A DNA stretch of 64,000 nt from the NCBI GenBank assembly GCA_951406725.2, contig OX597814.1:84506001-84570000 (forward strand), read 5' to 3'. Below are positions 2,196-22,800 of this stretch, piece after piece. The notes below the pieces were generated by a model. The model worked only from the letters and a program-made list of their open reading frames with translations, searched no databases and was not told the DNA's origin. The translations under genes and the position numbers were made by a program. Position 1 is the stretch's first letter. Each line of letters begins with the position of its first letter. The DNA is from Octopus vulgaris. Its lineage: Eukaryota.

Positions 2196-3632
2196 TGCAG
2201 TCTATCACTTTTGTTGAAGGTATGAGACAGCTTAAAGCCAGAGCTGTGGACCTGTGCTATAAAAGAGCCAAGCTTGACTATCAGCTTCTTTTCTAAAGAG
2301 CTGGACTGTTAACCGGACAGACCTGCTCAGCCACCTCTCTCTTGCTAACTAGTCAAAGAAATTAAGCCTCATCTGGAAAGAGAGATGCCCTTACATTAGC
2401 CTTACCACACATGAAACTACCTATAGAAAGCATGTGAAGGATTGATTACAATAAATAAAACTGTAAATTTCTTTTGGAAAAAATTATATCAAAATAATAA
2501 AAACAATTTTATTGAATACAAATACAAATGTTTTTAAAAATTAGGTGACAAAATAAAAAATTCAGTAGATATTTGTATTTTGAGCAGCAATTCATGTAAC
2601 AGCCTTAAAAGTTATTGTATAAATAGCAGAAAACCATTTTTACAAAAATAAATAAATGAATAAATGAAAAAGGTTTTGAAAAACAAGTTTCATACTAACA
2701 CTTCATTTCTAATAACAGGCTTCTTTAAGTAAATGACACCAACATCTTACATTATTAATACTGGAATTCAATGGAAGCCAATATTCAATAAAGGATGAAC
2801 ACATGATGGGAGACTCCAAAGCAATGAGAAAGTTAAGTCACTCAACACAACCAGGATCTGATATTTCTACTTAAAGGTTTAATTCTTGTATTTTTGAGAA
2901 TTAGGTGTATCAAAGGATATATAAAAAAAAATGAATGGTTTTGTGTGTGCACACAAATCCACTTCCACACACACACGCACAAGAGAGAGAGAAAGAGAGA
3001 GAGAGAGATTACCTTGAATATTTTTCCTAAGTCACTTTTGAAGACTTTATTTGAGAAAATTCTTAAAGAAATGAATATTGGGGTTCTAAAATGAACCTTT
3101 AAGGCTTTTTTGCTCATCTCTTCATTTAACAAAAATTGTAAACTCTATCATCTATGTACGTATGCATATATACATATGACATACACACACATACACAAAC
3201 AAACAAACACAACAGCAAATGCTAGTAAATGTAGGAAGCATTAGTTTTTAAAAACAAGTAATTCTAAAAAAACAGGCCAAACCTTAAAAAGGTATAACAA
3301 GAACAACAACAATAAAGCTGCATGTGATCCTGTACTTATTTATCTTTATTTTTACCTTAATGTAAAGGTGGAGGTCAAGGTCCGTTAAGAAAAAATATTG
3401 AAACTGAGGAGAAAGGAAGGGGTTTCTTACTTTTCCAATTCTAACAAGATCTGAGGTGATGAGTCTATTAGCATTGCCTATTTCATGAATACATTTAAAA
3501 GGAATAGGGAGCAACTAGTTAGATACGGACAAAAAGAAAGAAATTAATAAGTAGCAGAGTAAGAAAGAGATATTGTGAAAGATGGAGCAGTTAGTCAACC
3601 CATCCATCCTTGAGGACCACCTCAATACTTAC

Positions 3633-3978
3633 CTTGAGCAGGAACAAGGGTCAGGAGTTTTGGAATAGGGAGACTTCATAGCAGGTGACTCGCAGTCTAT
3701 TATACTTTCAGTTCTGCAGTTGTAAAGTACTGTTAAAACCTAAGAAGCCATTGCTTGGCATTTGTTAAATGTAACCAAGCCACCAGTCTCTGGGGTTTTA
3801 ACAAATGGCAACTATTAAAAGTAGCCGCAATTATTATTCCACACTTTGTCCTGGTAACTAGGAGAAAGCTACATGCAATGTTGGTATCATTTCGCAAATA
3901 TCTTAATTGGCTTTTCTTTTCCTCTGAGTTCATATGTTACTGGTCCACAGGAAGAAAACGGTTAAGAGAAATTTCTGC
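3633..3978 (-). other. DGCR8: Putative non-coding 5'UTR exon of DGCR8
   Basis: Acceptor ctctttaatttttag| before 3978 and strong donor CAAG|GTAAGT after 3633. No convincing ORF; contains hairpins. Confidence 0.55.
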
Positions 3979-6900
3979 CTAAAAATTAAAGAGTAGCACT
4001 GTAGGATTAGAAGCACCTCAAATGCTGTAAAATTGAATGTGGAAAAGTAGAAACCGCAATGCAAGGGGGTAATAACAGCAAAATTTAGTTTGTGAAATGA
4101 AGTCAACACAGTGATGGTACTTATTACCAATTTTCAACCTAACAAGCTATAGCTCCTCCAAAATACCAGGTATAAGTTTTAAAAAATACTATTACCTTAC
4201 TAAATATTACAAAAGCAAATTGTTAAACAGATATACCCTAACCTCAAAGTTAATTTATTTCCCAGTTTTCCACCAAATTTCCAGAACATTCAGCTACCTT
4301 TGCATCTACTTCATATCAAAGAGTGAAAATTCTGTAAAATCTATACAATATTCAGGACTTTCACCAATCCAAATGGCAGCAATATATCTGAGTATCATTG
4401 CCTTTTTGGAAAGTAAATAACAAAACTGCACATCAACTGCAAAATCCACATGACACCTTGAGCAAGTGTATTTATTCTACTACAACCTCAAGCCAAGCAA
4501 TACCTTGTGAGGGAATTTGGTAAATGGTAACTGAAAGAAGCTTGTCAGTCATGTGTGTCTGTATGAACATTTACAAAACTATGCTGAGTTATAACTTGTG
4601 ATGTCACCATTTGTGGCTCAGCAACAACCAGTGACATCATTTCTGGTTGGGTTACAACTAGTGACATTTCCTGTCCACAAATTGTCCAGTAGCCATTTTC
4701 AAATGCTTCTTGAATAAAAGGTTGGCAACAGGAAAAGCATCCAGCCATTAAAGTTCTTCCACAATTTTCTTCTGATTAAGGCATGAAAAACAGATATTAA
4801 ACAGTACAAACTTATTAAATTCGATCAGTGAGATAAGATACCAAGCAAGAGCTTTCTCCATGCTTAAATAAAATAAACTGAAGGAATTTTAGCTTACATA
4901 CTGATTTTCCCTTTTTAATCACAACCCTACATTAACAATGAACCAATGAGTAATGCTTAAAATGATTTTGTTTGTAAATTAAAGAAAAACTTCTATTCTT
5001 CAGTTACAGTGTCATGATTAACATGACAGTGGATAAACATTTACTCATAAAGTTTATAGGCCCCTTTTTTCCAAGTAGACAATGGAAAAATTTATAGCCA
5101 ACTGCATACCTAGATATTGTGTAAACTTGATTCACCAAATAAAAAATTAAAACAGTCCCCTCCATAGCTAAACTCAAATACTAGGGTAATTTTTTTCTAT
5201 AAATCAGCTTTCTAAACTCTATTAATAGATGCAGGCATGACTGTGTGGTCCTAGAAGATTGCTTCGCAACCACATGAGTTCAGGTTGACTAAAACCTTGT
5301 GAGTGAAATTTGATAGACAAACTATATGGAAAATTGTCACATATATTGTGTGTGTATGCCTGCATACATGCATTTGTCCACCTGTATCTTTGCATTGACA
5401 CCACTTCAACAGAGATGACATTTATCTCTCACAGGACTTAAGAGTCCAGTAACACTGATTCAACATGGGAAGATGTGAATCAAGTATCTTATTTGTAAAC
5501 AAGAAAGCTAAAAAGCTGGCATCAGGAAGAAAATTTGGCTGTAAGAAGACTCATTGGAGGAGTCCTCAAGAAGACTCATTCAAGTAGATGAAAGATGATG
5601 AAATTGAAAAGCACTTACTACAGCAAAATGTTACTTTGACAATCTACCAGCAATTTTGATAAAAATATGGATCAAATATTGTACAGAAATAATAATGATG
5701 TCACTAAATGTTATTATCTAAAAAAAAAAAATAATAATAATCGAAGTTGCATGAACAGACTATTTCAAACAGCAGTGTGACAGTGATATTTCACTATAAT
5801 CACTACTACCGTATGATATCACAAAAGTTGAGGTATCAAAAATACCCTTCTCTTGTAATCTATCAAAATCAATACTAGCAACATAAAAATTCAAGGTAAA
5901 TTTTTATTAGGCATGCCATTCAGAAACTCCTGCAGGCCACAAGTTGCACAAGATTGCCTTATCACTATAAAATAAAAATCTATAAAATGCTTCATTATCA
6001 TCAACGTCACCATCGTATATAAACATACCTAAAACATTTTCCTTATTCTACCTAACTGCAGGATTGTCTTTTCTATTGGTGGGGTAGTGAGTACTTAAAA
6101 AAAAAAAAAAAATGTAGATTTTGAAAATGAAAAACAAACTAAATAAAAAAAAAAAAAAAGACATAATATCAATGAAAAGAGTAACTGAAGTAATCTACTA
6201 AAAACTACCAATTTTATTTTACTGTAATTTAAGTTTTGCTAAATTGGAGACGCTACTGAATGTTATCAACCTGTAAATTTGATATATTATCCTTAATAAC
6301 AAATGTAGAACTAGATTAAAAATTTTTTTTTGTTCTTTATTTAAATAACCTTAAATGAAATGTTATTCTGACAACTTCAGACTAAAGAAATAACTTTACA
6401 ATACATACAAATATTTTAATTGTTCAAAGACCTCACTAAGTTCTTTGTAAATTATCAATACAGATTTTTCAATGTTTATCACTGTGTATTAGGTTAATTT
6501 TAACACTATGGTACAAAGTCCTGATATTTCGTTAAGAATAATTCAGCAAATATCCAGAGATTTTATTAATATTTTCTGCTTACCAACCACTTTACTGCGA
6601 CACAAGCCTCTACAGAGTCACTTGACCAGCTAGAAATAACAGCTGACCCAGTAAGGGAACTGCTTGGCTACAGCAGCCAAATCTCCTTCAAATCTTATAT
6701 GATGTCTAAAATAAAGGATAATGTGGACAATATAGTCCTTTATATAAAAACAGAAGATGGTCATGGTTGGAACACTTCATCATACATCTGCTCAATCAGA
6801 CATAACCTAATACAAAACAACTCATAAATAGCGTTCCTTACAAAGGTCAAATGTTCCTACTGTAGATGTTTACAATAGTCATATGATCTGAGTTAAGAAT

Positions 6901-21339: not shown

Positions 21340-21371
<32 letters not shown>

Positions 21372-22565
21372 TATTTGAATGGATAAAAAAAGTACTCGAG
21401 AGAATGTTGACAATTAGCATAATCTAGAAGATTCACATGAACTGGACCAAAGATATAGCATAGTTTTCTTTTTTAATTCAACGATGTCAATTTAAGAACC
21501 ATTACTCTTTACCAGCTTGAAAGGATTGCGGACCAAACGGTTTAAGATATATTTATAAGGGTTACACTAGTGAAATGTTCGAAACATTTATTCATCAAAT
21601 TTATGGCGATTCTAAACGAATATTCCCTTTCATTCCTGCCCTCCTCCACTTTTTTTTTTTTTACCGATTTTTCACTTTTCTTGCATACAATTTTTAAGGA
21701 GAACCAATTAAAAGAACAGTACGAATGGAGCAAAAACAGGATAGGGTGGAAAGTAAATTTATTACATTATGTTGTTAATTACTAATACAATTATCTCAAA
21801 TGCCTTTTCACCAGCTGATTATAAAGGTATCTTTATGCCATTTCCATTCAAATTCCCTTAATTTTAGCTAGACTTTACGATGCTCCACTTTTTCTTTTTT
21901 ACCTAACTCCACAACGATTCGACTCCTTGTACACAAGGAGAATTCTAGATTCTATGACAACGAACAAGGGAAAATGTAAAGAGACATTTCTTTTATACGC
22001 CAAATGTACTAATTTAATTTCAATTTTTCTCTTTCATTGTATAATCTCTCTTCTTAAAATATTCATTATTGGGTACCACTGATATATATATATGTATATA
22101 TATCGAAGTACACAGTATTATAGAGCCATTACAGCCGATATTGTGTACTTCGATTAATATACCCACTCAAGTGACAAATACACGAGTGCATATTTTTTCT
22201 GACTTATAGTTTCTTAGACACACACACACACATATATATATAGGCGGACCTGGTACAGTCCCCACCACCACCACCTCCGAAACTGACCGCCTATATATAA
22301 TCGTCTAAGAATCCGTAAGTCAGAAAATGGATCTATAATACTGCATACTTTGAGATACAATGATATTCAGCGCAGAAGGTGAATTTTTCCACTGGATCTA
22401 CTCCATTCCCTAATTTTTAGATATTTATATATAATTCGAGTGAATAATTCGATCAAGTGGCGTCATGTGAATTGAATAATAAGAGGCAACCACAGTGAAA
22501 TACATAAACGGGGAGGGGGGAACCAACAAAAAATTTTATGCAGAATGAGTTACTAAATAACCTAC

Positions 22566-22800
22566 CGGATAAAGAATAAGATGATGAATCGGAAGAATTT
22601 AGTTTGGCATGCAACTTGCAGAAGTAATAAGGACCGCTCCAGGTTGCCGAAGAAACGAGTGGCAGTTGGTGCAATGTTAACAAATGTGGTGGCAGGATGG
22701 CAACTAGAAGCGGGAGTTGATGTTGCCTCCACCAAATAGAAAAAAAAAACAACGTGCGAACAAGTTGGAGGAGTAGTCGAAGTAGAGGTGAATGTTGTAG
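22566..22800 (-). other. DGCR8: Putative first exon of DGCR8 (5' end approximate)
   Basis: Donor CCG|GTAGGT after 22566 within a CpG-retaining region, next to an ETS-like motif. Confidence 0.5.

What the first reader, a model, noticed from the sequence alone, without database searches (positions are those of the whole stretch)
2196..22800. Multi-exon DGCR8 5'UTR carrying an array of pri-miRNA-like hairpins (candidate expanded Microprocessor auto-feedback system)
Seen: upstream of the DGCR8 ATG, four minus-strand segments with one or both splice sites (22566+, 11627-12074, 3633-3978, 2196-2372) each contain stem-loops of about 50-85 nt, at least six in total. Known: in mammals, Drosha-DGCR8 cleaves two hairpins in DGCR8 mRNA (the mir-3618 and mir-1306 hairpins), and Drosophila pasha has a 5'UTR hairpin; this creates negative feedback. 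Inference: this lineage spreads more hairpins over separate non-coding exons, so alternative splicing could tune feedback strength. This is notable if the source is a coleoid, a group with an expanded miRNA repertoire.
Basis: partly seen in the sequence, partly recalled or inferred. Interest (0 to 1): 0.88.

Follow-up and report, generated by a model that had tools for sequence, protein, structure and literature searches.

The report
Four microRNA hairpins in octopus DGCR8
The non-coding front end of an octopus gene for the microRNA-processing protein DGCR8 holds four predicted microRNA-type hairpins, one nearly identical to a listed squid microRNA precursor, in two blocks flanked by splice signals, and they likely let the processing enzyme cut its own cofactor's RNA, with exon skipping as a possible way to escape the cut.

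Summary
The gene is a single-copy octopus DGCR8 (ATG at 2195, minus strand). Four hairpins stand up, on two of the four named segments: A, B and C in 12074-11627, D in 3978-3633. All four have a basal UG at -14 and a CNNC at +15 to +17 in one cut register; three such hairpins arose in 0 of 600 shuffles (two under the stricter rule in 2 of 600). Hairpin D matches a squid small-RNA-derived precursor in 44 of 47 arm positions, with a diverged loop. The A-C block differs by 1.6% in a related organism, against 8.2% for introns. Hairpins in 22566+ and 2372-2196 fold no better than shuffles. The one splice joint seen comes from an unnoticed exon ending at 10373 and skips block D; inclusion of either block was not seen, at low power. 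Best reading: Microprocessor auto-feedback as in vertebrates and flies, with the hairpins on likely skippable non-coding exons. Main rival: an intronic microRNA cluster hosted by DGCR8. Cleavage of A-C, feedback and splice tuning are untested.

The parts
1637..2372 (-). First coding exon of DGCR8 with 177 nt of leader; ATG at 2195. No hairpin above chance in the leader part.
   Evidence: Protein match; X9 contig of 736 nt spans exactly 1637-2372; folding
948..1090 (-). Second coding exon of DGCR8; holds a weak UG+CNNC hairpin (1066-1000), not followed up
3633..3978 (-). Block D: candidate non-coding cassette exon, single copy, 6 upstream ATGs; skipped in the one joint seen
   Evidence: Only AG|GTAAGT in 20.2 kb; single copy; ATG count; joint 10373 to 2372
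3736..3796 (-). Hairpin D, 61-nt pre-miRNA; counterpart of squid miR_182134_27962/_28916; UG at -14, CNNC at +17
   Evidence: PMC8125070 Data Set S1, compared by eye; register; single copy
10373..10447 (-).
   Evidence: Joint 2372/10373 with CT..AC ends, one X9 contig, depth 13.2; acceptor score in top 2.1% of 487 YAG sites; fold
11627..12074 (-). Block A-C: candidate non-coding cassette exon, single copy, GC 0.47 against 0.26-0.28 in flanking intron, 8 upstream ATGs
   Evidence: contig 11356-12023 differs at 11 of 669 positions against 176 of 2147 in six intronic contigs
11958..12020 (-). Hairpin A, predicted 63-nt pre-miRNA; UG at -14, CNNC at +15
   Evidence: prediction only
11838..11894 (-). 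Hairpin B, predicted 57-nt pre-miRNA; UG at -14, CNNC at +17, 11 of 13 lower-stem bases paired
   Evidence: prediction only
11712..11767 (-). Hairpin C, predicted 56-nt pre-miRNA; UG at -14, CNNC at +17, weak lower stem (7 of 13 paired)
   Evidence: prediction only
22566..22800 (-). Candidate first exon, 5' end unknown; good donor, CpG-rich zone; no pri-miRNA-like hairpin
   Evidence: CpG observed/expected 0.93 against 0.10-0.27 in introns below 17 kb; single copy; no RNA laid

Best explanation
Four predicted pri-miRNA-type hairpins lie on the sense strand of the octopus DGCR8 leader in two splice-signal-bounded blocks, and Drosha-DGCR8 likely crops them, which would cut the capped front off transcripts that keep these blocks and so lower DGCR8 when Microprocessor is abundant. 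Steps: (1) shown: sense-strand hairpins with UG/CNNC in register, a squid counterpart for D, conservation of block A-C, and one spliced form that skips block D. (2) Inferred from squid small-RNA data: D is cropped and diced. (3) Inferred from motifs: A-C are cropped; B or A could help the weak neighbour C, as mir-3618 helps mir-1306. (4) Inferred from splice signals: both blocks are cassette exons. Included or not yet spliced out, they are cut (or, uncut, burden the mRNA with 6-8 upstream ATGs each); skipped, they are intronic and the mRNA survives. (5) Inferred from vertebrates and flies: the net effect is negative feedback.
For: Motifs: of 265 loose hairpins on both strands of the window, 9 carry UG(-14) plus CNNC(+15..18) and 4 of the 9 are A-D, within 794 nt. 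Block A-C: 3 such hairpins in 0 of 600 shuffles, or 2 under the strict +16..18 rule in 2 of 600; block D: 12 of 600. Squid: hemolymph row (miRDeep2 score 290) and light-organ row (score 15); by eye 21/22 and 23/25 arm identity with a diverged loop; three of four differences around the stem keep or improve pairing. The hemolymph row's ends put UG at -14 and CNNC at +17. Conservation: 1.6% against 8.2%, Fisher p 3e-11, equal to the coding exon's 1.8%. Donors 85 and 103 nt after the last hairpin of each block, rough chance 7e-4, computed after the fact. Precedent: mammals and flies both use non-homologous DGCR8 hairpins (10.1101/2025.09.09.675111, passages; PMC13288104, passages).
Against: No joint into or out of either block was listed in 4 of 4 runs laid, and the X9 contig reads through the 11627 donor at intron-level depth (11.8 against 83 for the coding exon). 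Power is low: the coding junction 1637/1090 is not listed either, and raw reads give almost no depth upstream of 2372. Folding z-scores are modest; the count of long stems in block A-C is not unusual (75 of 600 shuffles). No squid counterpart of A-C in parts 1-6 of 7 of the list, and no other row on D's scaffold. The light-organ row starts 1 nt later, which moves UG to -15. The CmR motif is complete only in C; apical UGU/GUG is late or absent. Whether the squid hairpin sits in squid DGCR8 could not be checked. The conservation figure rests on one contig of one run and does not show where the 11 differences fall.
Confidence: 0.58

Rival explanations
1. Intronic microRNA cluster. A-D are ordinary intronic pri-miRNA hairpins that use the DGCR8 promoter; they are cropped from the intron without harming the mRNA and are kept for their small-RNA products. 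The flanking splice signals are rarely or never used.
For: D yields a listed small RNA in squid. The only joint seen skips D, and the X9 contig is unspliced at 11627. Conservation extends into intron below 11627 (at most 11 differences in 271 nt, 22 expected).
Against: Both blocks end in 2 of the 5 GTAAGT donors in 20.2 kb. The listed squid mature strand differs from octopus at position 5, inside the seed (by eye), though the other arm's seed region is unchanged. No squid rows for A-C. PMC9699675 says its novel families do not co-occur on a scaffold (passage), so A-D are not four annotated families. A cluster landing by chance in DGCR8, the one host with a known feedback role, is less economical.
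Confidence: 0.27
2. Cleavage-independent splicing switch. Microprocessor (and SRSF3 at the CNNC sites) binds the hairpins and changes inclusion of uORF-laden exons; feedback then works through translation block or decay, not through the cut.
For: Blocks add 8 and 6 upstream ATGs to a leader that otherwise has 2. Precedents: eIF4H exon 5 (PMC4006729, abstract) and DROSHA exon 7 (PMC5473138, passages).
Against: D appears fully processed in squid; the hairpins lie 54-182 nt from splice sites rather than across them; inclusion was not seen.
Confidence: 0.1
3. Only D is real; A-C are chance folds in a block conserved for another reason (a small ORF, enhancer or other RNA element).
Against: The strict motif test still gives 2 of 600; the 60-aa and 66-aa peptides found no homologue among proteins of similar length, and the 60-aa one no Pfam family.
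Confidence: 0.05

Closest known systems
Vertebrate DGCR8 feedback hairpins mir-3618 and mir-1306
   Same: Pri-miRNA-type hairpins at the 5' end of the DGCR8 transcript; strong and weak neighbours side by side; some without a listed mature product (PMC13288104; 10.1101/2025.09.09.675111; PMC2736397 part 1 of 4).
   Different: There, two hairpins flank the ATG on one exon. Here four lie 1.5 and 9.5-9.8 kb upstream on separate blocks, the ATG exon has none above chance, and a form that skips block D exists. No sequence family in common was found.
Drosophila pasha hairpins
   Same: Protostome case of the same circuit with non-homologous hairpins (stated).
   Different: Two hairpins there. The primary fly paper was not held, so its exon layout was not compared.
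Squid predicted miRNA miR_182134_27962 / _28916 (PMC8125070 Data Set S1)
   Same: Hairpin D is its octopus counterpart: 44 of 47 arm positions identical by eye.
   Different: Listed only as a scaffold coordinate; the passages read do not link it to Pasha. It may be one of the coleoid families of PMC9699675 / MirGeneDB, whose sequences I could not see.
Microprocessor-controlled alternative exons (DROSHA exon 7, eIF4H exon 5)
   Same: Hairpin in or at an alternative exon, linking Microprocessor to splicing.
   Different: Those are coding exons with one hairpin; these would be non-coding exons of DGCR8 itself with up to three.

Membership tests
DGCR8/Pasha Microprocessor feedback hairpins | Host gene is DGCR8/Pasha and hairpins are on its sense strand near the 5' end | tested here: met
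   gene; hairpins on the minus strand upstream of ATG 2195
DGCR8/Pasha Microprocessor feedback hairpins | Hairpins have pri-miRNA geometry and processing motifs | tested here: met
   A-D: 56-63 nt pre-hairpins, 16-19 of 22 5' arm bases paired, UG -14, CNNC +15/+17. Motifs are described as bilaterian-ancestral in PMC11701709; the positions -14 and +16..18 are recalled.
DGCR8/Pasha Microprocessor feedback hairpins | Hairpins lie in exonic sequence of the mRNA, so a cut destroys it | tested here: inconclusive
   Splice signals present; no inclusion joint in 4 of 4 runs, one skipping joint, low power
DGCR8/Pasha Microprocessor feedback hairpins | Hairpins are cut by Drosha | not testable with these tools
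   Indirect for D only: squid miRDeep2 calls in two sample sets
DGCR8/Pasha Microprocessor feedback hairpins | Loss of Drosha or of the hairpin raises DGCR8 mRNA | not testable with these tools
   needs knockdown or deletion
Vertebrate-type layout (mir-3618/mir-1306) | Two hairpins flanking the ATG on one exon | tested here: not met
   Windows around ATG 2195 give z +0.28 to +0.61 and no UG+CNNC hairpin
Canonical miRNA gene (hairpin D) | About 60-nt hairpin, 16 or more arm pairs, loop of 8 or more (criteria recalled) | tested here: met
   61 nt, 16 of 22 paired, loop 14
Canonical miRNA gene (hairpin D) | Arms conserved, loop diverged between species | tested here: met
   21/22 and 23/25 arm identity, loop changed with a 1-nt indel; by eye
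Canonical miRNA gene (hairpin D) | Reads from both arms with 2-nt offsets and a uniform 5' end, in octopus | not testable with these tools
   Only squid consensus rows were seen; the two rows differ by 1 nt at the 5' end
Described Rfam RNA family | Covariance-model match | tested here: not met
   No match over A-D at gathering score or among 48 hits with E up to 10

The most novel reading that the evidence does not exclude
Coleoids moved Microprocessor auto-feedback onto two optional non-coding 'Drosha-poison' exons carrying three plus one hairpins. Splicing choice sets how many cut sites a DGCR8 transcript carries, so tissues with heavy microRNA load (such as the nervous system) can skip them and raise Microprocessor dose, while the skipped intron still yields a coleoid microRNA.
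Probability: 0.22. Interest if true: 0.86.

Novelty: new variant of a known kind. Interest (0 to 1): 0.66.

Why it matters
The passages read describe DGCR8 feedback in vertebrates and flies, with two hairpins. A molluscan case with unrelated sequences would be a third lineage and would strengthen the view that the cut, not the small RNA, is what is kept. A layout on skippable exons would add a control knob not described in the papers read, in the group with the largest invertebrate microRNA gain. It also suggests that at least one conserved coleoid microRNA owes its origin to feedback rather than to its targets. All of it can be tested with existing octopus long-read and small-RNA data.

Tried and rejected
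Plain folding energy as proof: rejected; intronic repeats fold better. Hairpins in 22566+, 2372-2196, 3978-3894 and just after the ATG: at chance. Repeat origin of the blocks: each had one match in G000 (such searches give lower bounds). Coding explanation: no homologue for two uORF peptides. Rfam: only microsatellite-driven or weak hits elsewhere. Squid miR_208658_40368 resembles hairpin B's 3' arm (about 18 of 22 with a gap, by eye) but lies on another scaffold with another pairing register: treated as chance. The X9 contig ends at 12023, beside A's predicted cut; contigs cannot show ends, so not used. Earlier scan findings: four answered look-ups, nothing. Data S1-S4 of PMC9699675 gave 100 characters; Han 2009, Kadener 2009 and Auyeung 2013 were not held. 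Covariation could not be computed: no orthologous cephalopod DNA was available as a locus.
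Full report
Setting. The window is G000:C1:84506001-84570000 in a 2.8-Gb genome. The frame from ATG 2195 on the minus strand is 100% identical over 186 residues to a protein named Octopus bimaculoides DGCR8, 83% to Argonauta DGCR8 and 63% to a cluster that holds a cuttlefish DGCR8; all three start at the matching Met. The remaining exons follow in order to C1:84,466,259 as one locus; three weak hits elsewhere cover only a short late stretch. 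So this is an octopus DGCR8 and everything above 2195 is leader. The species was not determined.

Folding alone does not carry the claim. A scan of 903 windows (100 nt, 20 shuffles each; stopped at 2450) gave z<-3 in 5.1%, the strongest outside the named segments; the one at 16.2-16.6 kb is a high-copy inverted repeat. With 200 shuffles on ten 120-nt windows: A -2.31, B -1.83, D -1.57, C -0.62, 22566+ -0.73, and +0.28, +0.28, +0.61, +0.37, -0.19 for the other five. In block 12074-11627 three long stems occur (shuffle mean 1.71, P 0.14) with summed energy P 0.013; the other five segments tested were not significant, block D being closest at P about 0.07-0.08.

Hairpin D has a squid counterpart. 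Data Set S1 of PMC8125070 lists miR_182134_27962 (light organ, score 15) and miR_182134_28916 (hemolymph, score 290) at one locus. Compared by eye with window 3796-3736, the first 22 positions match at 21 and the last 25 at 23, and the loop differs with a 1-nt indel. Of four differences in or next to the arms, two turn G-U into Watson-Crick pairs, one turns a mismatch into a pair, and one stays a mismatch (position 5, in the seed of the listed mature strand). Rough chance over the region and 434 rows is 1e-15. D has one copy in G000. I read parts 1-6 of 7 of that file and saw no convincing match to A-C; an id search found only these two rows on that scaffold. Whether the squid locus is in squid DGCR8 is inferred, not checked.

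Processing motifs pick out four hairpins. With the hemolymph row's ends, D has UG at -14 and CNNC at +17; the light-organ row is 1 nt shorter at the 5' end and would shift UG to -15. The motifs are described as ancestral to bilaterians in PMC11701709 (passages); the positions -14 and +16..18 are recalled, the source paper not being held. Scanning all pairing registers, B (11894/11838) and C (11767/11712) also give UG -14 with CNNC +17, and A (12020/11958) gives UG -14 with CNNC +15; four other candidates, including both in 2372-2196 and the one in 22566+, give none. Window-wide, 9 of 265 loose hairpins carry both motifs: A-D, one in the second DGCR8 coding exon, and four elsewhere. In shuffles of block A-C, three motif-bearing hairpins arose in 0 of 600 (range +15..18, widened after seeing A) and two under the strict range in 2 of 600; for block D one arose in 12 of 600. 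Against: CmR is complete only in C and apical UGU/GUG is late or absent.

Conservation. Run X9 (organism D, RNA by guess) gave a contig over 11356-12023 with 11 differences in 669 nt (1.6%), against 176 in 2147 nt (8.2%) for the six mostly intronic contigs among the eight listed, and 13 in 736 (1.8%) for the coding exon (Fisher p 3e-11, or 7e-4 against the least diverged intron). The answer showed 8 of 255 pieces and did not show where the 11 differences fall. No contig covered block D.

Exon chain. RNA could be laid only on 900-12600, in 4 of 24 listed runs. One X9 contig spans exactly 1637-2372 at depth 83. No joint at 12074, 11627, 3978 or 3633 was listed, and the contig reads through 11627 at depth 11.8, within the intronic range. 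But the coding junction 1637/1090 is not listed either, and raw reads fall from 7.3 and 2.6 on the coding exon to 0 over 11848-12238, 0-0.42 over block D and 0 over the 10373 exon, so the test is weak. X21 shows no depth on the coding exon. For exon status: only five GTAAGT occur in 20.2 kb and two close the blocks; GC is 0.47 and 0.39 against 0.26-0.31. CpG depletion ends near 17 kb, consistent with a promoter zone that includes 22800-22566, but no RNA confirms that exon.

Mechanism. Most likely (0.58), Microprocessor crops A-D on the DGCR8 primary transcript and, where the blocks are kept or not yet removed, severs the cap from the coding region, giving negative feedback as in vertebrates and flies. 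Skipping would make the hairpins intronic; that intronic cropping can spare the mRNA is recalled knowledge. Included blocks also add 8 and 6 upstream ATGs to a leader with 2, so an uncut included transcript would likely be poorly translated too. Steady-state RNA lacking the blocks is expected under feedback and under the main rival alike. Rivals: intronic microRNA cluster (0.27), cleavage-independent splicing switch (0.10; precedents), and A-C by chance (0.05; uORF peptides without homologues).

What is in print. Ten searches (listings only, the last showing 25 of 180) turned up no paper linking cephalopod DGCR8 to hairpins. PMC9699675 has no occurrence of DGCR8, Pasha, Drosha or Microprocessor in its main text or supplementary PDF; its data archive was unreadable and holds an isoform annotation that bears directly on the exon chain. 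PMC4793324 (bivalve pathway; passages) has no 'UTR'. MirGeneDB 3.0's supplement had no DGCR8 or Pasha hit; hairpin D may well be an annotated coleoid family there. PMC12553114 and 10.1101/2021.08.03.454879 (passages) added background only. Subscription papers and databases were not searched.

Verdict. A real and conserved feature, smaller than claimed: four hairpins on two blocks. It works like DGCR8 feedback and meets the features testable here except exonic position (inconclusive) and the vertebrate layout (not met). New variant of a known kind; interest 0.66. The splice-tuned version stands at about 0.22.

Noticed in passing
window 49807-50100 and 53454-53720, + strand: RAD50-like coding pieces (first one matches RAD50 chains, E about 1e-6), so a RAD50 gene appears to diverge from DGCR8 about 27 kb from the candidate first exon.
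   Followed up: partly
window 24665-24777 and 44786-44857, + strand: Two tRNA genes by Rfam; the first has an insert of about 32 nt in the anticodon loop, likely an intron, and lies 1.9 kb upstream of the candidate first exon.
   Followed up: no
window 23975-23851, minus strand: Strongest fold of the scan (z -10), upstream of the candidate first exon; no UG+CNNC register; its last 50 nt have four weak matches elsewhere. Unexplained.
   Followed up: partly
window 16190-16620: High-copy inverted-repeat element, 103 matches listed from 40 of 2983 candidates scored; would form long dsRNA in the DGCR8 leader intron, a likely ADAR substrate.
   Followed up: partly
window 1066-1000, minus strand: Weak hairpin with UG -14 and CNNC +16 in the second coding exon; could be a coding-region site like mir-1306 or chance.
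   Followed up: no
window 11356-11626: Intron just downstream of block A-C also looks conserved (at most 11 differences in 271 nt, 22 expected) and holds loose hairpins near 11648 and 11552; possible splicing-control sequence.
   Followed up: no
window 20206-20713: 508-nt (AT)/(AC) microsatellite, source of the low-score miRNA-family Rfam hits.
   Followed up: yes
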